A DNA stretch of 64,000 nt from Asterias amurensis (lineage: Eukaryota): assembly GCF_032118995.1 (NCBI RefSeq), contig NC_092652.1, positions 15,688,336-15,752,335 on the forward strand, written 5' to 3'. Of this stretch, positions 5,013 through 59,649 are shown piece by piece; positions within the stretch are counted from its first letter, which is position 1; the number at the start of each line of letters is the position of its first letter. The notes beneath the pieces were generated by a model that saw nothing but the letters and a program-made list of their open reading frames with translations, had not been told where the DNA came from and did no database searches. The position numbers and the translations under genes are program-made.

Positions 5013-5166
5013 TGGTTATTTCAGCTCCACCAATCCTGTAGATGCCTTTAGTGAAAGCTCCAATTATTATCTTCTTGACAAATTCTCCTTCCTGTGCAGA
5101 TTCATACATGCTTTTGGTTTGATTGCTCCAGTCCCATTAAATTTCCTTCACTTTCCACAGTATTTC

Positions 5167-5557
5167 AAGGCAGCGGACACGATTGGTAATTAGTCAACAT
5201 AATTATTAACATAACACCAACTTGGTGACGAGTAATGGGGAGAGGTTGGTAGTATAAAACATTGTGAAAAACGGCTCCCTCTGAAGTGCCATAGTTTTTG
5301 AGAAAGAAGTAATTTCCACGAATTTGATTTCAAGACCTCAGATTTAGAATTTGAGGTCACAAAATCAAGCATCTGGAGGCACACAACTTCGTGTGACAAG
5401 GATGTTGTTCTTTCAGTATTATCTCGCAACTTCAACGACCACTTGAGCTCAAATTTTCACAGGTGTGCTATTTTATGCATATGTTGAGATACACCAAGTG
5501 AGAAGACTGGTCTATGACAATTACCATTAGTGTCCAGTGTCTTTCAAATATTTTTTC
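5167..5557 (-). mobile_element. MITE family A copy in the AGPS intron, ending 14 bp from exon 16
   Basis: both TIRs present (aaggcagcggacacgattggtaat / attaccattagtgtccagtgtcttt). Confidence 0.9.
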
Positions 5558-9372: not shown

Positions 9373-11010
9373 CTGAGGGGTAAAACACAATCCTGTACAG
9401 TTAGAAATTAATAACCTGTCACTCAGCGATGCTCAAGGCTATTTAATATACAGTATTTTCCTGCAGAGCATGTGGGACTACGTTTGAATTATGAGACCTA
9501 CTCCTTTTACATCACCATTAGCCTTTTTTAGGTATGGCGCCAGACACACAAGGCCTGAAGGCCACTTCAAGGTGTGGGCCACAATTATTTTTGTCCAGAG
9601 GCTGTTGCCACCTACTTCTAGGGCTAAAACAGTCCGTAGGCTTGGGTATCATCAGTCCGAAGCCTGGCTGGTAGAGCAGAAAGCAATACCTCCCCAATTT
9701 TACGTAGCAAGTGTCACGACCAGGACCCGAACCCACACCCTGCCGATCAAACAACAGAGCTTGAATCCGGTGCTCTCAACCGCTCGGCCATAACATGCCA
9801 TGGTGGACACTATAGTAGTGCACTGTTCTGTTTGGGTGTATACAGACAAATTTACCCCAACCGAATAGTGTCATAGTATCGTGTCCGCCATATCTCAAAA
9901 TGACTTGTGGCGCAATATGCTGCCAATCAACCAGGACCTCATCTCTTTTCACTAAGTGCACTGGCTCCTTTTATGTGCATTACACAACACACAGGATCAC
10001 CGGCTTTATGTCCCATCCGAAGGACGAAGCATCATGGTTAGGTGTCTTGCTTAACGACACAGGTGTCATGACTCAAATCACTAATGGAGGACCATAGGAC
10101 CATTCCAGGCATTACCAAGTTACAAGGAGCTTTTCTAAACTTTAAATAGAAAATAATTTGGACTTAAACAAAGAAAATTTGATTGGAGCATGATGATTGG
10201 AACCTGTGACCTTGCTTTACCAATTAAGCTATCTTGCCTTTGATGGCGGTCTCCCTATTTTGTCAATAAATTTGCTTGGGGGTGCCACTCAGCAGCCATT
10301 AAACTTTAAACTGCCGTATAGCCAGAGATCACACCCAAGTTTACAGCTTCTTGTCACCCCTGAACAAATGGACAAAATAGGTAGACCAACATCCGGGCCC
10401 AATTTCATAGGGCTGCTTAACAGTAAGCAAATTTCCAAGCTTACTGTCACAGAAAAATTTGCTAAGGCGCAGGCGTATTTCACAGGTTGGCAGAAAATTT
10501 AAGCAGCTATATTTCTTGTTCACCATGGATTTGCATTGTGGCGTCATTTATTTTCATGCAGTAAGCATCGAAAGGTTAGCATGCCATTTAGTGTGCTTTT
10601 GGTTAGCAACGCTAAGGAATGGACATCGTACAGTAATCCCAAAATTGCCACTAAGTAGCTCTATGGTAGCATGACAGCACGTTAATCAAATTGCTACAGG
10701 TTCTAATCCCCCTCTAGAAATTCTTTCTTTGTTCAACCCAAAATTATTCCCCATTCAGTTTCCCTAGTGGATTATGATAAATAAAGAAACATCATTTTAA
10801 AGGCTATAATGTATATAGATTTACGCTATACATGTACTTACACAGTTTGAAGATAATGAAAGGAGAAAGCTTTGCTTAAAAACGTACTTGATGAGGTGCC
10901 ACGATTTTTGAGAAATAGAGGTTGAAAAATATCACAAAAATAATAATTGTCTCATTTTTAGCATGTAAAATGTATTAATACCATAACTGGTTAATACGCT
11001 TTACACGCTA

Positions 11011-11466
<456 letters not shown>

Positions 11467-15333: not shown

Positions 15334-15450
15334 CTAAAAGAACAAGTATAGATTCATAGTGGGAGTGATCATTTCTAATTCTACAATTTTTCACTTTTTG
15401 TAATTATTAATTCTGGTGGTGAATCCAAAGATTCTCAGAAAAGAGAACTT

Positions 15451-15832
15451 AAAGGCATTGTACACGATTGGTAATTGTCAAAGACCAGTGTTCTCACTTG
15501 GTGTATCCCATCATAAGCATAAAATAACAAGCCTGTGAAAATTTGGGCTCAATTGGTGTTCTAAGTTGCGAGAAAATGATGAAAGAAAAAACACCCAAAC
15601 ACCCTTGATGGACGAATTTGTGTGCTTTCAGATAGGAATAAAAGACTTCTAGCTAGAAGTCTTTTATTATTTTAGTGAGAAATTACCTCTCTCTCAAAAT
15701 CTATGTTAGTTCAGAGGGAGTCGTTTCCCACAATGTTTTATACTATCAACAGCTCCCCAATGCTCATTACCAAGTCAGTTTTTAAGTTAATATTTGTTTT
15801 CAACAATTACCAAACGTGTACCTTCCCTTTAA
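15451..15832 (+). mobile_element. MITE family A copy (full length)
   Basis: aaaggcattgtacacgattggtaattgtc ... caattaccaaacgtgtaccttccctttaa. Confidence 0.85.
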
Positions 15833-16390
15833 TCACTGTACAAGCCATGAACCCCATAAAGAGAATACATTAACAACCCTGAGAAATTACTCCAGCAGGA
15901 TTCGAACAGGGGACCTACAGGTAGAAAGCGAGGAAAGAAACCACTGGCAACCTGACCCCCTCATTGTATAATTCAATCAAGTTTTACTGCTTCTTCAAAG
16001 ACTATGAAACCCGACACTTGTGTTTTGGGTATACACCCAGGGGTATAAATGGGTACCTGCAATGATAGGGGTTGATAATGTGTTTAAATACGCCTTTGGA
16101 GTGTCACGGCAGCTCAGGCTGTATACTCCTAAAGGAGCTGAGAAATGTGAAAGGGATGTTTTTATTTGACCAATGACCAGGGCACCAATGTAAAGCACAT
16201 TGTTGTTTAACACTCTATAAGAACAAGTTATTATTATATTATTCAAGGAAAAGGTCCAAACTGACAGTTACTTATCTGACTTCATTTCAGGTTTTTATCA
16301 ATATGCAAATATTATTGCATAGAGGTATCAAAATTCCGGTTTCTTGATGATTTTGTTGACGTGAAAAACATGAAAATAGTTTGTACAAAC

Positions 16391-16462: not shown

Positions 16463-17517
16463 CTGTCAAACACAAAGAAAGGCAAAACCAACATGATTAA
16501 TATCACAATATTCTTGCATGTTGAAACTAGACAGCGAAGCTGCCATGGCGAGCTTTCGAATGCCGGATAGACCCAATGACTGACAGAAAAACCAATTATT
16601 TGATCAGCTGATGGTCAAAAGGGTGGAGACATTGACAAGTATGAAGTAATGACCATTCTAGGTTTACACTGTTTTAGCTCATTCAACTGGGATGGAACCA
16701 ATGATAAACTCGTTTAAACGCATACTGCTAAAGCAGCTCGCCAAAAATCAACTGTCATTTGCTCTTAACCTACATCGTACCAGTGCACTGTTTGAAACTG
16801 TTTGCCTGTTTGCCCGTTTCAAAAATGTCAATAGTTCGGAATCAACTGAAATGAAACCACTCAAACTAATCTAATTATTTATTTTGTCATAAGGGTGTAG
16901 TTTATTTTGTCAAAATTAATTCCTGGAAAAACTTATACCCATTTTTTTATTTTTTAAGAGGTGTTTTTTTTCCCCACCCGTTGGCTGTGCCCTGCATGGG
17001 TTCCCAGCAAAGACCCATAAAAATGAACAGTGAAAACAACACTGAAGTACCGGTGCCTCAGAAGACCGGTCCAAGCTGTGCTGTAAACTACGTCATAACA
17101 CGGACTGGATGAAAGTTGTGTAAGTTTGTTGCTATGCATTTTTTATTGTCTTTATTGGACCAAATCCATAGTGTGAGGTCACAATGCTGTTTTGATTCTT
17201 AGCCCATTAGTGGGTTTTCATGAAACTTTTGCCTATTATGAAACGAATGAAAATGTTGGTTTTTAGGGAAAATGTTTTATTGAGTTTTACTCAATTACAT
17301 GTAGTTATTACAATCTCAACTACCTTTCCGTATCAAAAGAACAATAATTTCATTTAAGTTGATTTTAAATAAAATCAGTTAACATAAAAGAGTTCCTTAA
17401 GTCAAAATTCAATTTGTAAAAAAGGTCTATTGTTTTGGTCAGTTGTCTTGTCTGTAGTGATAATTCCAAATGTATTTTTATATTTAAAAGAAACAGTTTC
17501 TTTTTAACGTATTTTTA

Positions 17518-18041
<524 letters not shown>

Positions 18042-27399: not shown

Positions 27400-28529
27400 A
27401 TTTTCCCAAGTCAGACAAAGATCTTGATCGGGAAAGTCGGTAATAAAATAAAACTACAGGCAGCCCTGGACTCTCGCTCTCTCCGATGTGCAAACTACAT
27501 TCACAACGTCAACAACGACAACGTGTGTTATGTGAATGGCCTTGTTTTAATAAACTTGCTTAAGTCGCACAAGGGCAAACTACCACACTTACCAATCTAA
27601 TTTTCTTCATTGCATAAATTTAGAAAAATTAAAACGTACTCTTTTTATGATTTAAAAAAAATGAATAAAAGCTTTCTAATATCAAAAATACACCAGTTAA
27701 AAATTATACACAAAATATTTTATGTAATGCTTTATTAAAAGGACTAGTGTAGCTCTAGGTAAATTTCGCATCACGCCATACACGATTCTTTTTGTCAAAG
27801 AAGTAGTGACATGACCAGGGGCGCCCCCTAGACAGGTGGTGAAGTTGGGGCGGGGGTTGAAGGGGGGGGGCTCTAAAATATTGATGTAAGAATATGTGAA
27901 TAAAATCAACAACAACGACAATCTTCGAGTAATACCATTGTTGACGCTGGCAGAATTACCAGCGGGGCATAAACCGTCCGGAACAACAAGGATGAAAAAT
28001 TAATTATTTTTGTCTCAATGCGACTGAACCGGTCGCAAAATGAAAACTCTGGCTGCTCAGCTTGCGACAGTTCGCAGTGAAATTGGGGGGGGGGGGCACG
28101 GAATCGCCGGGGGGGGGGGGCACATAATCATGTTCAATGTGCGCACGAGGGCGCTCTGAGTTTACGAAATGTGAAATGGTTATCAAGATGATCTGAATTT
28201 CTGAATGTCATGCAGGCAGATATTTCCCTCAAAACCAGCAACTAACCTCAGTCTCTGGTAAACGCTCATTCGAGCAAATCAAATAACTGCTTATGTTTCG
28301 TGAAATCCTTTATTAATCTGTTTGAGTGTTCAGGAACTTTTAGTCAAGAATAATATAAATGAGTCAACTGAAAGAATGTAGAGGCTATTTCCCTACACAC
28401 AATAATCATCACACTTAATTAAAACATAACACAGTCAGCATGTAAAAAATAAGAAGAATGATCCAATAGCCTGTAGAGTAAACAATGTGGTTGTGTGCCC
28501 CCCCCCCCGGGGGGGGGGGTGTCTACCCG

Positions 28530-29600
28530 CAAGTAAGTTAGTATTATATACACCCCGCTTGGGCAATTTGCCCAGATCTGTATAGTCTTTGTGCAACTTG
28601 CCCGAAAAGATATACCAACTGAGCAACATAGATCGGCCAACTTGTCTATACATCATGCCCAACTTGGGCAAATTTAATTGTCTACATTATGATACACAAT
28701 GCCCAACTTTGAAAACTTGTAAAAATTGATATCGCGTGCCCCAATCGGGCAATTTGTCGACATTGATATACATTTGCCCCGCTTGAGCAACGTGTCTACA
28801 TGGAATGCCAAACTTGGGCAACTTAGTACGCCCAATTAGGGCAGCTTGCCTACATTGATATCATATACACCGGTTTGACAACTTGTCTATACATTGATAT
28901 ACGCCTCTTGACTAAATTGAACAATTATCTGTCGACATTGATAACTTACGGTATGATACCGTCCCGATTGGGAAACTTGTCCATACTGATAATTATAAAC
29001 CCCGACTTGGCAGTTATTTTGTCTACATTGATATACATATGCCGAACTTGGGCAACTTGTCTACATTAATAATTTGCCGAACTTGGACAACTTGTCTACA
29101 TTAATAATCCGTCCAACTGGGCAACTTGTCTAGCTACATTGACAACTTAGTATGCCCCACTAGGGCAACTTGTCTACATTGCTATTATTTGCTCCAATTT
29201 GGCAGTTATTTTGTCTAACATTGATATAATCAATAGTTACAGGTAAAAACTTTCATACTCACATTGATATCATATGCCGAACTAAGGCAACTTGTCTACA
29301 TTAATAATATATGCCCAACTTGGACAACTTGTCTAGCTACATTGTCATATGTCCAACTTGGGAAAAAAAATCTACATTGATATATTAATATGCCCCACTT
29401 GGACAATTTTTCGACATTGATATACAATAATTTTATGCCCAACTTTGACAACTTGTCTGCCCAACTTGGGCAGCGTGTCTATATACATTATGCCGAACTT
29501 TGACAACTTGTCTACATTCATATCAGTCCAACTTGGGCAACTTGTCTGCATTGCTATAATATACAGTATGCCCGTTAGGGCATTTTGCCTAAATTTATAT
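28530..29600. repeat. Satellite array, ~40-bp degenerate unit (atgcccaacttgggcaacttgtctacattgatat) x ~25
   Basis: about 1.1 kb of tandem variants; flanked by C9G10 and G10-12 homopolymer tracts at 28495-28520 and 28090-28130. Confidence 0.9.
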
Positions 29601-33083: not shown

Positions 33084-33342
33084 CTGTGACAATCAAAGAG
33101 TAAAGAAAATTCTCGATCAAACTTAACTACTTTATTTTATAACATTATTGAATTTTGATCTTTACTACATGCATACCCCCCCCCTCTCACCAACGGCCCA
33201 TAGCAATTGTTGTGCTCGTCTCGTCTAAAAAAAGAATTGGGCTAGATTCTTTACAATGAACACTAATTACTACTCAATGAAATTGCTGCATTAAAAAAAT
33301 AAAAAATAAGGAGTGTACAGGCAGAATTCCATAGTAACATAC

Positions 33343-34331
33343 CTGTCCTTGCATGCTAAGGAGGCGTTCTGTGTTGGTCGACATCCCTCTTGGTTGATCT
33401 ATAGATAGAGCACACATCGCCATATCATCCATCCCCATACCATCCATCCCCATGTCAGCCATCCCAATTTCTGCCGCCATTTTGAGACTCTCCCATGGCG
33501 CCCTGGATCGCTCCTCCTCTGATTGTAATCTATCCCAACTTACCCCTGTCAGGGGGACTGCGGGCAGGGATCGAGGTAGGGATCCAAGAGATCGAGGTGG
33601 GGGTGAAGCGGGTACGTACTGAGCGGGTGCCCCTGGGAGGGGTGGGTGTGGGGGTGGAGCGGGTACATACTGAGCGGGTGCCCCTGGGAGTGGTGGATGT
33701 GGGGGTGGAGGGGGTGGAGCGGGTGCAGATTGAGCGGGTGGGTAAGATTCTCCTGGAAGGGGGTGTGGATGTGGGAGTGGAGCGGAAACAGACTGAGCGG
33801 GTGGGTATGTAAGTTCTCCTGGGAGGGGTGGATGTGGGGGTAGAAAGGGTTCAGACAGAGCGCGTGGGTAATGGTGTTCTCTTCTTGGGAGGGGAGGACG
33901 TGTGATACCTTCGGTGAGTAGGGCAATGGGCTCGTCATCTAGTGTACATGTATCGCGATGCATTGCAAGGCCAGTTGGCCTTATCATCTCTATTTCCGTC
34001 TCGTCTAAAGTATCTTCCAAGGACAACTCTTCTTCACGAAGCTCAAGTGATTTGCGACGAATACTTTTCTTAAGCCGGAGTGCTAATTTCGTAAAAACAT
34101 TCTTAGGCTTACGTTTTGGGGTTTCAACAGCTGGTTCGTAATGCACTTCTTTCTTTCGCACCACCACGGATGGCAAAAGGTCCAATTCTTTTGGTTCCGG
34201 CCTCCATTCTTCTTGTAGTACTACAGGGAAGTCTTCCATCATGACTAATTGATCGAATTCGGGTGAAGCTGGAATTTCTATTTCTATAGCTTGCCGTCTC
34301 TCTGGGAGAACTTCAATGGTTAACATCGACT
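33343..34331 (-). CDS. Unknown proline-rich protein gene, exon 2 (989 nt; ESMLTIEVLPERR...HPPLPGAPAQYVPAPPP repeats...ERLLSMQGQ)
   Basis: 330-codon open frame (ORF 33274..34326) in AT-rich DNA; acceptor ctgtacag; donor CAG|gtatgt inside the ORF at 33343; internal ~60-bp coding tandem repeats at 33540-33900. Confidence 0.7.

Positions 34332-34432: not shown

Positions 34433-34493
<61 letters not shown>
34433..34493. repeat. (CAG)n microsatellite with CAA interruptions, ~80 bp upstream of... just 5' (genomic, higher coordinate) of exon 2 of the unknown gene
   Basis: cagcagcag... run; lies in the intron between exons 1 and 2. Confidence 0.95.
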
Positions 34494-34692
34494 AGAGACA
34501 AAGTACTGCATGCCCATTGTGAATTATCGAAAACAATTTGATAAAGTGCAATTTGGAAACGCACTGATTGAAAATTTAACCTTTCTTCAAGGGAAATATT
34601 CGGGTCTGAGAAAATAGCACTGTTGAGACAACTCTCCTCCAACCCATCATACGTTGTTTATTTCTATATCACAAATGCAAGCAATCGAAACA

Positions 34693-35074
34693 AGCATATT
34701 TAAAGACATTTGACACTATTGGTAATTGTCAAAGACCAGTCTTCTCACTTGGTGTATTTCATAATATGCATTAAATAACAGACCTGTGAAAATAATCTCG
34801 TACCTGTGCGAGATAATAATGCAAGAAAAAACACACTTGTCACACGAAGTTGTGTGCTTTTGTATGGCTGATTTCGAGACCTCAAGTTCTAAACTTGAGG
34901 TCTAGAAATCAAATTCGTGGAAAAATACTTCTTTCTCGAAAACTACGTCACTTCAGAGGGAGCCGTTTCTCACAATGTTTTATACCGTCAACCTCTCCCC
35001 ATTACTCGTTACCAAGTAAGGTTTTATGCTAATAAACTTTTTGAGTAATTACCAATAGTGTCCACTGCCTTTAA
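34693..35074 (+). mobile_element. MITE family A copy (full length), about 140 bp 3' of exon 1 of the unknown gene
   Basis: TIRs gacactattggtaattgtc / accaatagtgtccactgcc. Confidence 0.9.
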
Positions 35075-35211
35075 GGGGCATGGAAAAACATCAGTATTGT
35101 TGAACCACCGTTCAAGCTACATTTGTCCACAATCTGGCAATGTGTGCCCCTTTTTTTAATTAAACGCTTGACCCTCAAATGAAAAGAATTGAGAACAAAT
35201 TTTTTATTTAC

Positions 35212-35305
35212 CGTCATCATCTTCCTGTGATATTTGGGGAGAAAATGGTATGGATGGAACGAGTCGTCTTGCTTTACTCATTGGTTGGTCCTGCTGTCTT
35301 TCCAT
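35212..35305 (-). CDS. Unknown proline-rich protein gene, exon 1 (MERQQDQPMSKARRLVPSIPFSPQISQEDDD-)
   Basis: ATG with purine at -3 and G at +4; donor G|gtaaat; phase joins exon 2. Confidence 0.55.
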
Positions 35306-35499
35306 TTCAATCTTACACCTTCATTGCAACCAAAACCAGCAATATTGTGAGGCTATAAATATGGCGCAATTATTATTAAGGACATTTTACTTGGGGGAGG
35401 GGACAATATATTGTATGTTTGGGTGTGCTGTTTGAGTGAACACTATTTTGTAATAACTCATAAATGCTAGCATAAAAACTTACATGGTATCAAGCAATG

Positions 35500-36650
35500 G
35501 AGAGTAGTACGAAACATTGTAGTATGAAACATTGTGCACTGCAAAAACGTTGGTCAAATTATTTGTTGGGCAAAGTAACTTCAACAATTATTGGTCAATA
35601 ATTGCCCAACAAAACCAATAATTGGTGTTGTTGGGCAAACATTTTGTTTGCCAATTTTTTGTTTAAAAAGCGGAACAAAAGTTGGGCAAGTGTTGGGCAA
35701 ATAATTCGTAATCTGAATTTATCATAACTGTTGGTTACACTTTTGCTTATTTATTGGGCAACTTTTTGGGTAACTTTAATTAATTTTGATTGTTGGTTAA
35801 AATGATGCACATCAGTTGGTCGAAATCATCCGATCATGCGCACTACGATCAAAGAGTTGCCCAAAAGTTGGGTATGGTATAAAAAACATAGCGATATTTT
35901 CCAACATGGCGAGTGGAGGAGTGGCTGTGACGAGCGGGGTTGTCCAGTAGATATAGATCAAATTTGAAGGTTAGTTTTTAACTAAATATGAAGTTGTGTT
36001 TTCTATTCAGTCGTACATAGTCGTGACAGTTGCAGAGCGAGCAACACAGCGACACTACTGTTGAATTAGTTTCAGTTTTTAGTTTCAGTTTCATCATGCC
36101 ATTATGTGCAATGCCGGTTGTGGCATGTATGCGTGTGCTTGCGCTGCAACTGTCACGACTGTGTACAACAACTGAACAGGAAACAAACTGTATTTAGTTA
36201 AAAACTAACCTTCCAAAGCATCTACAAACCACTGAGCACCCTCTCGATTTTGAGAGAGATGTCGAGGTCACAGCTCACTACCGTTTGCCATCGTGGAAAA
36301 GATATTTTCTATGCCTGGTTGTATGACGTATCACAGGAGAAACTGTAAATCAAAGGGTTAAATATGTTCACCATTTGTTGGATAACACCGAAAAGGGTTA
36401 AATCATCGCCCAATAAGTGGATTATTGATAATGTATTAAATACCCAGAAAATGGGTAAACAAAATATTACCCAACTGTTGGTTAGCAAAATATACCCAAC
36501 TATTGATGAGGAAATATACCCAATTATTTGGCAATCAGAGTGCCCAACTTTGATGGGTAATATTTTGCCCAAAAGTTGGAGGAGTTCACTATTCGCCCTT
36601 AATTGGGTAAAAGGTTGGGCATTTTTTTACCCAATTTTTTTACAGTGTGA
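35500..36650. repeat. Large (~1.1 kb) inverted-repeat/foldback structure with a central ~260-bp palindrome (35960-36220)
   Basis: the left arm is rich in ttgggcaa and the right arm in ttgcccaac/ttacccaa motifs; nested perfect inverted repeats tcgtgacagttgcagagcgagcaa / ttgcgctgcaactgtcacga and ggttagtttttaactaaata / tatttagttaaaaactaacc. Confidence 0.7.
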
Positions 36651-37472
36651 GAAAGATTAATTTTCCACGAATTTGATTTCGATACCTCAATAAGATTTTG
36701 AGTTCCCGAAATCAAGCATCTAAAAGCACACAACTTCGTGTGACAAGGGTGTTGTTTTCTTCCATTATTAACTCGCAACTTCGAGGACCAAATGAGTTCA
36801 AGTTGTCACAGGTTTGTTATTTTATGCATACGTTCAGATGCACCAAGTGAGAGGAATGGTCGTTCACAATTACCAGTAGTGTCCAGTGTCTTTAAGCATA
36901 ACCTCTGAAGGAGTTTAGCTGCGGAATGGCTTTGCAATACTACTATTTAATATTTTTATACAAACAAAGCAAACAACGCATGTCTCGTTAATAAAGCAAA
37001 ACTTAGAATGACAGGCGCAGCCATATGATAATCTCATTTTGAAAATAAGTTGGCTATAAGAAGTATACCGGTTGTTTTATTCTCAACATTTCGACTGAAG
37101 CATGTCATTAACCGAGAATGGAATATAAATTATTATCCTTAGCATACAAAGCTTCCAATCCTGCTTCATATTTTAAATTATCGAGATGTCAAGTTCTTTG
37201 GTAAAAAGAGGTTAGACCATATCCAAGTAAGCTTGACGCGCACACAACTTTTCCAAACAAAGAATACCAATGGCAGACTTTGGAGCACGAAGTGGCAGCA
37301 GAATTCAGGTAAATTTCCAGTGATTACGTATAGCTCTGAGCATACGCACATTACCGAGATCAATGAATTTTACCTGGTAAGTCTGCTGCCACCAAGCGTC
37401 CCAAAAACTCCCATTGGCGTAAAGATTATAGTAATTAAACTGCGATGGACTTATTCCCCGGATAATTGTAAA

Positions 37473-38899: not shown

Positions 38900-39272
38900 C
38901 CTAAAAAAACAAAAACACGTGTAAAACTATTTCCAGATCATCTCATCTTTAGACAGGTGCGTTCACACACGTTTGTCAACCCAGTAAAAAGAGACCTTGT
39001 CTTTTTTCTCCCATTAGTTGCAGTGTTTATTTCATTTTTTACATACTTATTTGGTTGTCATCCGTCGTCATTTTCGAACAAATTCCTTTGGAAAATTTAT
39101 TTCTTTTCTAAAACTTCGCCAACCTTATAAAGCCTCGCCTTACAACTTTGTTACGGTTTGGTTGAAACATTTACGTTAGCACAGCACAACAGGTCCATGC
39201 ACATAAAGCCAGCAAACTGCAGTCAGCCAGGGTTGTCAAAACCCATACAAATTAAACCCATTTTGGGATGTT

Positions 39273-39366
39273 TCTTCTTCTTCTTCTTCTTCTTCTTCTT
39301 CTTCTTCTTCTTCTTCTTCTTCTTCTTCTTCTTCTTCTTCTTCTTCTTCTTCTTCTTCTTCTTCAC
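39273..39366. repeat. (CTT)n microsatellite, about 31 units
   Basis: a perfect ctt run. Confidence 0.97.
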
Positions 39367-39444
39367 TTTAGGTTCGCCTTTATGTTTGAAGATAAACGCA
39401 TTATCATATACACAAGGGCGAGCACATAGCGATAAGAGTGTCCT

Positions 39445-39843
39445 TTAAGAGACTTGACACTAGTAATCGCCAAACCAGTCTTCTGACTTTGTGTATCTCT
39501 TGTGTATCTCAACATATGCACAAAACAACAAACCTGTGACAATTTGAACTCAGTTGGTCGTCGAAGTTGCGAGATAATAGATGAAGAAAAAACACCCCTG
39601 TCACAAGTTGTGTGCTTTCAGATGCTTGATTTTAGGACCTCAAAATCTAATTATGAGGTCGCGAAATCAAATTACAATATTTTAGTGGGAAATACTTCTT
39701 TCTCGAAAACTACGTTACTTCAGAGGGAGCCGTTTCTCACAATGATTTATACGATCAACAGCTCTCCATTGCTCATTACCAAGTAAGTTTTTATGCTAAC
39801 AATTATTTGGAGTAATTACCAATAGTTTCCATAGTGCCTTTAA
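39445..39843 (+). mobile_element. MITE family A copy
   Basis: TIRs gacttgacactagtaatcgcc / accaatagtttccatagtgcc. Confidence 0.85.
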
Positions 39844-40060
39844 GCATTGATATTTTTTATAACACACAGGACACAGCTTAAAACGTTGCGTCTGAATAAC
39901 AAAGCAATTATTAATAGTTTTAGTGGCTTGCTCAATGACACATTAGTGTAAAAACCGTGACTCGAACCCACACTCTGCTGATCAGAAACACCAAAAGAGC
40001 TCAAGTTGTCTCATTAGATGAAACTATAGGAATATACAATGGAATTATACAGATATTTAC

Positions 40061-50397: not shown

Positions 50398-51102
50398 CTT
50401 AAAAATAACAGATGAAAACGGAGTTAACTTTGCAACCATTTTCTTTTAAACGTCAAACAAAAAGACACTGTCAAAACAAGGTTTTCACTCGTCACCATTG
50501 CCATCGTTCATGCTTACACCACACAAGAAAGACAAGTCTCTGTTTAAAAATAAAGATTATGGCAACAGATAACTACAAAGTGTGATGCAAGTTGGTAACT
50601 TTTAAAAGCAACACTGAAAATAAATTATGGTTCTCCCTAATTCAGTGACACTTTCACTATTGACTTGAAATGCATCCGTTTTCAGTTTTGTCATTGTTGG
50701 GTGGTCGAAGGCACCATTGGGACGATTGATGCATGCCAGTGTAATGAGAGTCACCGGGGTGGCACGTGCGGCTAAGTGCTCGCCTCTCACTATTGACCCT
50801 GGATCGATTCCCAGCTATAGGGCCATGTGAGTAGAGTTGTGCAATGGTTCTTTTTTTCATGCAATAAGGAAGTTTCTCCAGGCCCTCCGGTTTTCCTCTA
50901 TCTTGAAAAGTTAAGCACTTCGATCTCTGGCTGTGCTCAATGTAAGGCTGCCTGAGACACATTCCATGCATGCAGCCCGAACACGTTGTAGCCGCGTCCT
51001 CAACAATTCAGCTTTCGCCAGCTGCAAGTAGGGATGATTAGCCTCCCAAATTAATATCACTATTGTTACTATTAATAATACTACTATGAATAAGTAACTT
51101 AC

Positions 51103-51321
51103 AGGAAATTCTTCGTCCATAAGATAAGCTCCGTGCCCAGCCTCCACTGCTTGGCGATACTCCCTGTGAGCTTTTTCCTTCTCCTTCACGACACCAACTA
51201 CATGTTTATCATTGATGAAAGCCTCAAATCCACAAACTGCCGCTGATTGGTCTAGTGGAAATACGTACTTGGCTTCCATGGTTTCGTCACTATTGTTACG
51301 ATACGACTGCAGGACCACTAC
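51103..51321 (-). CDS. PARP4: PARP4 exon, VIT domain (VVVLQSYRNNSDETMEAKYVFPLDQSAAVCGFEAFINDKHVVGVVKEKEKAHREYRQAVEAGHGAYLMDEEFP)
   Basis: near-identical to human VIVFQTYTNKSHVPIEAKYIFPLDDKAAVCGFEAFINGKHIVGEIKEKEEAQQEY...GHGAYLM; donor CCT|gtaagt. Confidence 0.93.
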
Positions 51322-57774: not shown

Positions 57775-58160
57775 TTGGTAATCATTCTTAAAGCCATTGG
57801 ACACTTTCAGTAAACAATATTGTCCAAGGCTCACACTTCGTGTACCACAACTTATATATAAAATAACAAACCTGTGAAAATTTAGGCTCAATCGGTCATC
57901 GGAGTCGGGAGAAAATAACGGGAAAACCCACCCTTGTTTCCCCACGTTTCGCCGTGTCATGACATGTGTTTAAAATAAATCCGTAATTCTCGCTATCGAG
58001 AATTGATAATGTTTTAAAGTTTTCTCCAAAAGTAAAGCATTTCATGGAATAATATTTCAAGATAAGTCTTTCATTATTACCTTCTGTAAAACCTTTAAAT
58101 TATTTGTAAATTTGTGAACTTTTTTCTTTGTTTCTGTACCGAAAGTGTATAATGGCTTTA
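57775..58160 (-). mobile_element. MITE sub-family A' copy
   Basis: aaagccattggacactttcag ... ccgaaagtgtataatggcttta. Confidence 0.8.
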
Positions 58161-58548
58161 AAGGCAGTGGACACTACTGGTAATTACTCAAAATAATTAT
58201 CAGCAAACAACCTCACTTTAACGAGTTATGGGGAGAGGTTGGTAGTATAAAACATTGCGAGAAACGGCTCCCTCATATAAAAGTGACGTAGTTTTTGAAA
58301 GAGAAAATTTTCCACAAATTTGATTTCGAGACCTCATGTTTAGAATTTGAGAGATCGAAATCAAGCATCTGAAAGCACACAATTTCATGCGACAGGGCTG
58401 TTTTTTCTTTCTTTCATAGTTATCTCGCAACTCCGACGACCAATCAAGCTCAAATTTTTACATGTTTGTTATTTTATGCATATGTTGAGACACACCAACT
58501 GTGAAGGCTAGTCTTGGACATTTACCAATAGTGTCCAGTGTCTTTAAA
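58160..58548 (+). mobile_element. MITE family A copy abutting a family A' copy
   Basis: aaaggcagtggacactactggtaat ... accaatagtgtccagtgtctttaaa. Confidence 0.9.
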
Positions 58549-59032
58549 ATGAATTTGGCCTTTGCTTGGATAGAAGCCTACAACAGCGTTTGATGTTACA
58601 AAACATTTTGAGAAACATTTCACTTCTAAGCAATGCGGTTACGAATGAGACCGTTTCAGATTGTGTATTCCTATTTTGTTACAGTGATGATTCTTCCTGC
58701 ATGAACATTATTCACTTTTTTTTGGGGGGGGGGGGGGGGGGGCGATATCTCAAAAAACCGACCAAGGTATCGACTATAAGGGAAGACATTTGGAATGTCT
58801 TTTGAGCATCTGGGTTTCATGCAGATGTATATCTTCTAAGGAGCCAAAGTACATGAAATGTCATTTTAAGTTTGCCTCCCTGATACCTTTTTGTTTTGGG
58901 TCGACCGAGAATCACTCTTTATCTCTTTATAGTTCGCGCGACTCTGAAGGGGCCTATCGTAACCGGGGTGTTAGAAACATTTTTGGTAAAGCAAAAACTC
59001 ACTCTTCCGAGTCCAATTTTCCTGTACGAAAC

Positions 59033-59143: not shown

Positions 59144-59272
59144 CTAAATGGTAAATAGTTTGAACAATTGATTAAACAAGAGCAACTATGAGGCCTATTT
59201 TTGTGGACAAGTTTACCCGACTATATTTTTTGTAAACCCTGCCTTTGCTGACAAAATCATAAGCCCGACTTA

Positions 59273-59649
59273 AAGACAGTGGACACTATTGGTAATTGTC
59301 AAAGACTAGTCTTCTCACTTGGTGTATCTCAACATCTGCATGAAATAACAAACCTGTGAAAATTTGAGCTCAGTTGGTCGTCGAAGTTGCGAGATAATAA
59401 TGAAAGAAAAACACCCTTGTCACACGAAGTTGTGTGCGCTTAGATGGTTGATTTTGAGACATCAAAATCTAATTCTGAGGTCTCGAAATCTAATTCGTGG
59501 AAAATTACTTCTTTCTCGAAAACTGTGTCACTTCAGAGGGAGCTGTTTCTCACAACATTTTTTACTATCAGCCTCTCCACATTACTCGTAATCAAGTAAG
59601 GTTTTATGCTAATAATTATAGTAATTACCAATAGTGTCCACTGCCTTTA
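59273..59649 (+). mobile_element. MITE family A copy in a PARP4 intron
   Basis: aaagacagtggacactattggtaattgtc ... accaatagtgtccactgcc. Confidence 0.9.

What the first reader, a model, noticed from the sequence alone, without database searches (positions are those of the whole stretch)
35500..36650. About 1.1-kb foldback structure with a nested 260-bp palindrome immediately upstream of the unknown gene
The region 5' of exon 1 of the proline-rich gene (ATG at 35305) is a long imperfect inverted repeat. Its arms carry many complementary short motifs (gttgggcaa vs ttgcccaac). It is centred on a near-perfect palindrome (35960-36220) with 20-25-bp perfect stems. It is either a foldback-type transposon or a hairpin-forming promoter-proximal element. 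It also separates the 3' end of PARP4 (37561) from the next gene.
Basis: seen in the sequence. Interest (0 to 1): 0.5.

Follow-up and report, generated by a model that had tools for sequence, protein, structure and literature searches.

The report
Foldback-shaped non-coding DNA transposon insertion
The 1.1-kb "foldback" is real but ordinary: it is a non-coding cut-and-paste transposon with CACTG...CAGTG ends, arrays of a TTGGGCAA motif near both ends and an internal hairpin, and it landed inside another small repeat about 230 bp upstream of a gene.

Summary
Window 35537-36647 (1111 bp) is a discrete element. It splits one copy of a ~390-bp repeat that occurs about 20 times in the window. A full-length homolog with identical termini lies between unrelated flanks in a metagenome contig (L007).

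Anatomy:
- Ends are 5'-CACTG...CAGTG-3', within 22-nt imperfect terminal inverted repeats.
- There are 18 copies of TTGGGCAA-like motifs, all in the outer ~330 and ~240 bp (0.8 expected by chance).
- There is no ORF longer than 98 aa.
- The central palindrome is 35931-36246 (DNA fold z = -11).

The palindrome is also present in L007, so it belongs to the family and is not a nested private insertion. The two arms are inverted homologs only near the termini (66-75%) and next to the centre (75-80%). The middle of the arms is not alignable.

Best reading: a non-autonomous class II transposon with foldback-like architecture, probably of the CACTA/Mirage/Chapaev (CMC) group. It would be mobilised in trans by a transposase that binds the subterminal motifs.

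The target-site duplication is unresolved: TG/TG here, TA/TG in L007, and 32 bp of the host repeat are missing at the junction. The 8-10-bp duplications of classical Foldback, Mutator, P and hAT elements are absent. Nothing supports a host promoter or hairpin function. Interest is low.

The parts
35537..36647 (+). Whole element: a 1111-bp non-autonomous DNA transposon, 5'-CACTG...CAGTG-3'
   Evidence: It interrupts a host repeat copy. Homology to L007 1912-647 starts exactly at CACTG and stops at CAGTG(TG), blastn E = 5e-159. No ORF is longer than 98 aa.
35537..35558 (+). Left terminal inverted repeat, CACTGCAAAAACGTTGGTCAAA
   Evidence: 17/22 nt match the reverse complement of the right end. 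It is identical in L007.
36626..36647 (-). Right terminal inverted repeat; its reverse complement is CACTGTAAAAAAATTGGGTAAA
   Evidence: L007 has CACTGCAAAAAATATTGGTTAA at the same place.
35550..35864 (+). Left subterminal array: 10 sites of TTGG(G/T)(C/T)AA, 8 forward and 2 reverse
   Evidence: 8 of the 10 sites are identical in position and sequence in L007. Motif columns are 95% conserved against 78% for non-motif columns.
36406..36634 (-). Right subterminal array: 8 sites of the same motif, 5 reverse and 3 forward. It includes a 24-bp tandem unit at 36460-36528.
35931..36246 (.). Central imperfect palindrome. The stems are 35963-36043 / 36136-36216 and the loop is 36044-36135. Weaker inverted homology extends to about 35888-36312.
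   Evidence: It is present, and more complete, in L007 (fold z = -12.4).
36044..36135 (+). Loop / middle domain. It contains the 13-bp unit TTAGTTTCAGTTT twice and a small hairpin. It is poorly conserved: 55% against L007, with indels including a 43-nt deletion in the window copy.
35435..35536 (+). Left fragment of the interrupted host repeat (profile positions 17-112). It ends with a 15-bp tandem duplication at 35504-35535.
36648..36900 (+). Right fragment of the interrupted host repeat (profile positions 145-399). 32 profile positions are missing at the junction.
35212..35305 (-). Putative exon 1 of the neighbouring proline-rich gene. This is context, not part of the element. Its ATG lies 232 bp from the element's left end.
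   Evidence: Read from the sequence. It joins in frame to the conserved acceptor ...tgtacag|AGTCGATG at about 34331. This is an inference; no RNA data were available.

Best explanation
Window 35537-36647 is one copy of a family of non-autonomous cut-and-paste (class II) DNA transposons. It inserted into a pre-existing small inverted-repeat element in the intergenic region between a PARP4-like gene and a proline-rich gene.

The element encodes nothing. It carries the cis signals for transposition:
- 5'-CACTG...CAGTG-3' termini within ~22-nt imperfect inverted repeats;
- on each side, an array of 8-10 copies of an 8-9-bp motif, (G)TTGG(G/T)(C/T)AA, in mixed but largely opposed orientation.

The inferred mechanism is that a transposase, or an accessory DNA-binding protein, from an autonomous relative elsewhere in the genome binds these subterminal motifs. 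This brings the ends together, and the enzyme cuts at CAC/GTG.

The foldback shape, including the central 316-bp palindrome, is best read as a legacy of how the family arose. One element half was copied in inverted orientation and the coding region was lost, after which the arms decayed unevenly. It is not a host-selected hairpin.

The termini, the short or absent target duplication and the subterminal repeats point to the CACTA/Mirage/Chapaev (CMC) group. This superfamily call is inferred, not shown.
For: Mobility and boundaries (shown):
- The host repeat is present in about 20 copies or fragments in the window. Its profile positions 17-112 and 145-399 flank the segment at 35536/35537 and 36647/36648.
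- An independent full-length copy lies in L007 (JACSEG010010595.1). It is 73% identical overall and 81% identical in aligned columns. Homology begins at CACTG and ends at CAGTG, and the flanks are unrelated (27% identity in the left flank).

Non-autonomy (shown):
- There is no ORF longer than 98 aa.
- A pseudo-protein built from all ORFs of both copies has no homolog.

Cis signals (shown):
- There are 18 motif sites against 0.76 expected, confined to the outer 35550-35864 and 36406-36634. L007 has the same layout with 21 sites.
- Motif columns are better conserved than neighbouring columns (95 vs 78%, Fisher p = 3.6e-4 in the left arm).
- The left inverted repeat is 22/22 identical between the two copies.

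The palindrome is integral to the family (shown):
- It is present in both copies, and is longer in L007.
- It has no separate copy elsewhere in the window.

CMC assignment (inferred):
- The CAC...GTG termini are invariant in Chapaev elements and in animal CACTA elements (PMC4079192, PMC6004678).
- Animal CACTA elements make 2-bp duplications, which were detectable in only 7 of 14 SmTRC1 copies (PMC1636069, PMC4298943).
- Here the flanks are TG|...|TG, and in L007 TA|...|TG.
Against: - Only two copies are available, so the target-site duplication is not established.
- In the window, the right-hand TG also aligns to the host repeat's own CG (CG to TG), and 32 bp of the host repeat are missing at the junction. 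A 15-bp tandem duplication lies next to it. The site has therefore been rearranged.
- In L007 the 2-bp flanks differ (TA vs TG).
- Both copies are followed by TG, which could mean the element ends ...CAGTGTG and makes no duplication.
- No transposase or autonomous partner was found, so superfamily membership rests on termini alone. Many animal CACTA elements start with CCC rather than CAC (PMC1636069).
- The motif-conservation test is biased, because the sites were chosen as intact in the window copy. After allowing for that, the excess is only marginal (about p = 0.05).
- The higher conservation of the central stems (~90%) compared with the arms (~80%) is unexplained and could reflect function.
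Confidence: 0.85

Rival explanations
1. It is a non-autonomous DNA transposon, but of a superfamily other than CMC (hAT, P/Galileo-like, Mutator/Foldback, PIF/Harbinger-ISL2EU, or an undescribed group). The missing long target duplication would then be due to age and to the rearrangement at the junction.
For: - Subterminal short repeats also occur in hAT, P and Harbinger elements (established knowledge).
- The junction in the window has lost 32 bp of host repeat, so a right-hand duplication could have been deleted.
- The 2-bp match in the window has a chance probability of about 1/16, and the flanks are mismatched in L007.
- A foldback shape evolves in several superfamilies (PMC4079207).
Against: - Two independent copies both lack any 3- to 10-bp direct repeat. 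The L007 8-mers TTTTGATA and TGGCGACG match at 3/8 positions.
- The termini are CAC...GTG, not hAT-type YARNG, P-type CATG or Harbinger-type GG.
- The target in the host-repeat consensus is TG, not the TA or TWA required by Tc1/mariner or PIF.
Confidence: 0.3
2. The central palindrome, or the whole foldback, is a functional hairpin used by the host. It could be a hairpin-RNA, siRNA or miRNA precursor, or a cruciform-forming regulatory module of the promoter 230 bp away.
For: - The fold is very stable (z = -11 here, -12.4 in L007).
- The stems are the best-conserved part between the two copies (~90% against ~80% in the arms).
- The element lies close to a putative transcription start.
Against: - The same hairpin occurs in L007 in an unrelated flank, so it travels with the transposon.
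- Differences between the left and right stems are shared by both copies, and the few lineage-specific changes are not compensatory.
- The only Rfam hits are sub-threshold (MIR156, 26.6 bits against a gathering score of 62).
- The window copy has lost 43 nt of one inner stem relative to L007.
Confidence: 0.05
3. It is a composite: a palindromic miniature element (35931-36246) nested inside an older, unrelated 0.8-kb transposon.
For: - The palindrome is far more self-complementary than the arms.
- Nesting is common in this window. The element itself sits inside another repeat.
Against: - The same arrangement is present in L007, so any nesting predates the family.
- Inverted homology fades gradually beyond the palindrome, to about 35888/36312 here and further out in L007, rather than ending at a sharp edge with a duplication.
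- No solo copy of the palindrome exists in the window or in the fetched loci.
Confidence: 0.05
4. It is a local inverted duplication or an assembly artefact (a foldback chimera), not a mobile element.
For: Palindromic chimeras occur in long-read assemblies (general knowledge).
Against: - The palindrome is imperfect (88-96% in the stems) and has a 92-nt asymmetric loop.
- A homolog occurs in an independent assembly.
- The edges coincide with the interruption of a host repeat.
Confidence: 0.02

Closest known systems
Animal CACTA / CMC non-autonomous elements (for example ENS1_Cis of Ciona savignyi and the CMC-NA miniature elements, PMC6004678; SmTRC1 and Spongebob, PMC1636069 and PMC4298943)
   Same: - Invariant 5'-CAC...GTG-3' termini.
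- A very short (2-bp) and often undetectable target duplication.
- Short imperfect terminal inverted repeats.
- Non-coding derivatives mobilised in trans.
   Different: - No autonomous partner or transposase is linked to this family.
- The 2-bp duplication is unproven here.
- Many animal CACTA elements begin with CCC.
- The long internal palindrome is not a described feature of those families.
Plant En/Spm (CACTA) defective elements (dSpm/I)
   Same: - CACT(A/G) termini.
- Arrays of a short motif in both orientations within a few hundred bp of each end. In En/Spm these bind TnpA and bring the ends together (established knowledge; subterminal repeats are discussed in PMC2613891).
   Different: - Plant elements make 3-bp duplications.
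- Their motif is 12 bp and unrelated in sequence.
- This element comes from an animal-like genome.
Foldback elements (Drosophila FB, Tetris, Galileo; sea-urchin TU; Tm1) as summarised in PMC4079207
   Same: - Non-coding.
- The two halves are inverted relatives, with repeated short units in the arms and a variable middle domain.
- The shape arose by loss of the transposase gene.
   Different: - Classical foldbacks have long, highly similar inverted repeats built of tandem repeats. Here arm identity is 44-75%.
- They make 8-10-bp duplications, which are absent here.
- Most belong to the Mutator or P superfamilies.
Hairpin-forming miniature inverted-repeat elements that give rise to small-RNA precursors
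   Same: A long stem-loop that is stable as single-stranded DNA or RNA and is carried by a transposon.
   Different: There is no evidence of transcription or processing, the Rfam matches are below threshold, and the stems show no compensatory substitutions.

Membership tests
CMC (CACTA/Mirage/Chapaev) DNA transposons | Termini 5'-CAC ... GTG-3' | tested here: met
   CACTG...CAGTG in the window and in L007. The criterion is taken from PMC4079192 and PMC6004678.
CMC (CACTA/Mirage/Chapaev) DNA transposons | Target-site duplication of 2-4 bp | tested here: inconclusive
   The window has TG/TG, but the right-hand TG also aligns to the host repeat's own CG, and 32 bp of host repeat are missing. L007 has TA/TG. 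No 3- or 4-bp repeat is present in either copy.
CMC (CACTA/Mirage/Chapaev) DNA transposons | Autonomous partner encoding a DDE transposase with the CMC signature | not testable with these tools
   No eukaryotic genome collection for the source organism was available. The element has no ORF longer than 98 aa, and the ORF pseudo-protein search found nothing.
CACTA / En-Spm type | Subterminal arrays of a short repeated motif in both orientations | tested here: met
   18 sites against 0.76 expected, confined to the outer ~330 and ~240 bp. L007 has the same layout.
Classical Foldback elements (FB / Tetris / Galileo type) | Long (hundreds of bp) highly similar terminal inverted repeats built of tandem repeats | tested here: not met
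   Arm-to-arm identity is 66-75% in the terminal ~120 nt and 44-51% in the middle of the arms. Only one short tandem array is present (24 bp x 2.8).
Classical Foldback elements (FB / Tetris / Galileo type) | Target-site duplication of 8-10 bp | tested here: not met
   The flanking 8-mers are ACATTGTG vs TGAGAAAG in the window and TTTTGATA vs TGGCGACG in L007. Caveat: the window junction is rearranged.
hAT | 8-bp duplication and termini of the YARNG type | tested here: not met
   No 8-bp repeat is present in either copy, and the termini are CACTG.
Tc1/mariner and PIF/Harbinger | TA or TWA target duplication | tested here: not met
   The host-repeat consensus at the target is CATTGTGAGAAA, with no TA or TWA at the junction. 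The flanks are TG/TG and TA/TG.
Transib / RAG-like | 5-bp duplication and a CACWRTG heptamer | tested here: not met
   The termini read CACTGCA. The 5-mers are TTGTG vs TGAGA and TGATA vs TGGCG.
Helitron / Helentron | 5'-TC ... CTRR-3' ends, a 3' subterminal hairpin, insertion at A^T or T^T without duplication | tested here: not met
   The ends are CACTG and CAGTG, and the flanks are G^T and A^T.
Known structured RNA families (miRNA precursors and others, Rfam 15) | Covariance-model score at or above the family's gathering threshold | tested here: not met
   The best hit inside the element is MIR156, 26.6 bits against 62 (E = 0.018). Nothing reaches threshold.

The most novel reading that the evidence does not exclude
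The family could be an undescribed lineage of CMC-derived hairpin transposons in which the well-conserved central stem-loop is a functional module. The stem-loop is about 90% identical between two copies that are otherwise 73% identical. It could act as a hairpin-RNA or small-RNA source that lets the host or the element regulate the family, or as a DNA hairpin needed for transposition. This copy, 232 bp from the start of a lineage-restricted proline-rich gene, could contribute to that gene's promoter.
Probability: 0.05. Interest if true: 0.45.

Novelty: new member of a known kind. Interest (0 to 1): 0.15.

Why it matters
The main value is for annotation.
- The interval should be masked as a nested transposon (a DNA transposon inside a miniature inverted-repeat element). 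It should not be treated as a regulatory hairpin.
- The putative promoter of the proline-rich gene is bracketed by three transposon insertions.

The nesting gives a relative age: the host repeat is older than this insertion.

A 316-bp palindrome can stall replication, cause deletions (the junction here is already rearranged) and confuse assemblers.

If the source genome is available, this copy and L007 provide a seed for defining the family, its target duplication and its autonomous partner. That would add an animal CMC-type family with an unusual foldback layout to repeat libraries.

Tried and rejected
- Other copies in the window: blastn at word size 9 and an nhmmer profile of the two copies found none. 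The only other TTGGGCAA cluster (28559-29533) is a minisatellite that is not significantly similar (E = 0.45).
Scans of viral contigs (3 patterns) and of prokaryotic genome contigs (2 patterns) gave nothing.
- Related PARP4 loci from ENA and Logan (L008-L011, about 53 kb): these contain neither this family nor the host repeat, so they come from distant species.
- Spurious-ORF trick: a concatenation of all ORFs of both copies, searched against 5.8 billion proteins, gave no hit.
- Organism identification: the proline-rich ORF has one homolog (67%, marine metagenome ERZ23498661). No paper mentions JACSEG.
- Literature search for the terminal sequence strings returned only primers.
- Rfam at a permissive E-value gave only sub-threshold hairpin-like hits.
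- Explanations considered and rejected: a nested private miniature element, an assembly artefact, and membership of Tc1/mariner, hAT, Transib or Helitron (see the membership tests).

Full report

Yes. Reading 35200-36900 and searching for repeats show a central inverted repeat. Its stems are 35963-35988/36191-36216 (26 nt, 96%) and 36010-36043/36136-36169 (34 nt, 88%), around a 92-nt loop. Aligning the region to its own reverse complement gives 35931-36246 at 67.7% over 334 columns, E = 8.6e-29. As single-stranded DNA this segment folds at -77.2 kcal/mol, against -34.8 +/- 3.9 for dinucleotide shuffles, z = -11.

Outside the palindrome the two arms are related, but weakly. Their best local inverted alignment scores 32 against 15.4 +/- 2.4 (0 of 300 shuffles reach it). 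The end-to-end alignment is only marginally better than shuffles, at 8 of 300.

Sites within one mismatch of TTGGGCAA number 18 inside the element against 0.76 +/- 0.97 expected. All of them lie in 35550-35864 or 36406-36634, and none lies in the central 540 bp. The exact-motif density is about 100-fold that of the rest of the window.

**2. Where are the edges, and what does it sit in?**

The window carries about 20 copies or fragments of a ~390-bp inverted-repeat element, with termini TTAAAGGCAGTGGACAC...GTGTCCACTGTCTTTAA. One copy is split. Its profile positions 17-112 are at 35435-35536 and positions 145-399 are at 36648-36900. The intervening 1111 bp, 35537-36647, begin with CACTGCAAAAAC and end with TTTTTTTACAGTG.

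So the 'foldback' is an insertion into an older repeat. The first and last 22 nt are imperfect inverted repeats (17/22). There is no ORF longer than 98 aa.

**3. A second family member**

A scan of metagenome contigs with the degenerate terminal pattern CACTGYAAAAAMRTTGGKYAAA returned six loci. Five are chance matches. One, L007 (JACSEG010010595.1, 2038 bp), contains a full-length homolog at 1912-647, ~1266 bp, blastn E = 5e-159.

In the pairwise alignment, similarity starts exactly at CACTG. The 30 nt to the left are 27% identical. Similarity ends at CAGTG plus a shared TG, and the flanks on both sides are unrelated. This establishes a discrete mobile unit.

Identity between the two copies varies by region:

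| Region | Identity, window vs L007 |
|---|---|
| Left arm | 81-85% |
| Two central stems | ~90% |
| Inner right arm | 78% |
| Loop | 55% |
| Outer right arm | 51-58% |

The central palindrome is present in L007 and is longer there (z = -12.4). The window copy has lost 43 nt of one inner stem. The palindrome therefore belongs to the family. It is not a private nested insertion.

**4. How far is it a foldback?**

I aligned both left halves with the reverse complements of both right halves.

| Segment of each half | Left vs right identity |
|---|---|
| Terminal ~120 nt | 66-75% |
| Inner ~180 nt | 75-80% |
| Middle ~300 nt | 44-51% (noise) |

Left-versus-right differences in the stems are shared by both copies, so they predate the split between the copies. 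The few lineage-specific changes are not compensatory. L007 retains stretches of inverted homology that the window copy has lost through deletions.

The simplest history is an ancestral element made by inverted duplication of one half with loss of coding sequence, followed by uneven decay.

**5. Mechanism**

- **Shown:** discrete termini; subterminal motif arrays confined to both ends in both copies; no coding capacity.
- **Suggestive:** motif columns are better conserved than neighbouring columns (95 vs 78% in the left arm, Fisher p = 3.6e-4; 66 vs 51% in the right arm, p = 0.046). The sites were chosen as intact in the window copy, and this bias halves the expected divergence, so the corrected excess is marginal.
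- **Inferred:** a transposase or accessory protein from an autonomous relative binds the (G)TTGG(G/T)(C/T)AA sites, pairs the ends and cuts at CAC/GTG. This is how TnpA and TnpD act on En/Spm (established knowledge).

**6. Which superfamily?**

The target-site duplication is the usual discriminator, and it is not resolved here.
- In the window the flanks are TG|element|TG. The host-repeat consensus at the left junction is CATTGTGAGAAA, which fits a 2-bp TG duplication.
- However, the right-hand TG also aligns to the host repeat's own CG 32 positions further on. Those 32 positions are missing, and a 15-bp tandem duplication (35504-35535) abuts the junction. The site has been rearranged.
- In L007 the flanks are TA and TG.
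- Neither copy has any 3- to 10-bp direct repeat. This argues against hAT, P, Mutator/Foldback (8-10 bp; PMC4079207), Transib (5 bp) and PIF (TWA).
- The target is TG, not TA, which argues against Tc1/mariner.
- The termini exclude Helitrons.

CAC...GTG termini are invariant in Chapaev elements and are reported for animal CACTA elements that make 2-bp duplications (PMC4079192, PMC6004678). In SmTRC1 the 2-bp repeat was visible in only 7 of 14 copies (PMC1636069). Spongebob also makes 2-bp duplications (PMC4298943).

I therefore place the family provisionally in the CMC group (about 0.45). The broader claim, a non-autonomous class II transposon, stands at about 0.85.

**7. Host function?**

The element lies 232 bp from the ATG at 35305. 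That ATG opens a 94-nt exon whose GT donor (after 35212) joins in frame to the acceptor ...tgtacag|AGTCGATG before the 350-aa proline-rich ORF. The acceptor is conserved in the only homolog, L001. The PARP4-like gene is on the same strand, upstream.

Nothing suggests that the hairpin is a host element:
- it travels with the transposon;
- no Rfam model reaches threshold (best is MIR156, 26.6 bits against 62);
- there is no covariation in the stems.

The somewhat higher conservation of the stems is the only loose end.

**8. Verdict**

This is a correctly spotted structure with an ordinary explanation. It is a new, or at least locally uncharacterised, member of a known kind of element: a foldback-shaped, non-coding DNA transposon nested in another repeat. 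Interest is low. The residual novelty lies in the family's architecture and in the unproven possibility that the conserved hairpin does something.

Noticed in passing
window, e.g. 5161-5556, 15439-15834, 17512-17891, 34690-35078, 39434-39846, 58154-58557, 59262-59649: A ~390-bp inverted-repeat element occurs in about 20 copies or fragments in 64 kb. Its termini are TTAAAGGCAGTGGACACTATTGGTAATT...AATTACCAATAGTGTCCACTGTCTTTAA, so it is TTAA-flanked (piggyBac/Kolobok-like target). From memory it resembles the 'TTAAAGGRR' T2/Kolobok elements of Xenopus; this was not tested.
   Followed up: partly
window 35504-35535 and the junction at 35536/36648: A 15-bp tandem duplication (GTAGTAYGAAACATT x2) lies immediately left of the insertion, and 32 profile positions of the host repeat are missing at the junction. 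The insertion site was rearranged, by an unknown mechanism and in an unknown order.
   Followed up: partly
window 34690-35078 and 35435-36900: Two copies of the host repeat in opposite orientation bracket the 360-bp segment that holds the putative promoter and exon 1 of the proline-rich gene. The proximal upstream region of that gene is thus almost entirely transposon-derived.
   Followed up: no
window 28498-29600: A C11G11 palindrome (28498-28519) is followed by a ~1-kb degenerate minisatellite with units of 33-37 bp, such as TGCCCAACTTGGGCAACTTGTCTACAT... The units contain the same TTGGGCAA/CCCAA core as the transposon's subterminal motif. The region is not significantly similar to the family profile (E = 0.45).
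   Followed up: partly
window 33274-34326 (-), with repeats at 33415-33465 and 33597-33871: The proline-rich 350-aa ORF contains 15-, 51- and 63-bp tandem repeats. It has a single detectable homolog (P0001, 67% identity, a 1.2-kb contig of marine metagenome ERZ23498661) and no Pfam domain. It appears to be a lineage-restricted gene.
   Followed up: partly
window 34433-34495: A (CAG)21 microsatellite (CTG on the gene strand) lies in the putative intron between exon 1 and the large ORF exon.
   Followed up: no
window 11008-11460 (-) and 50911-51318 (-): There is an exon resembling alkyl-dihydroxyacetone-phosphate synthase (recognised from memory, not tested) and the VIT-domain exon of a PARP4-like gene. 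The best database identity for the VIT exon is only 79%, so the source genome itself seems to be absent from the protein collection.
   Followed up: partly
L007 424-654 and 488-614: The flank of the second family copy carries a CTT/GAA-rich low-complexity tract. It matches a simple repeat at window 39250-39377 only through composition. It gave no clue to the organism.
   Followed up: no
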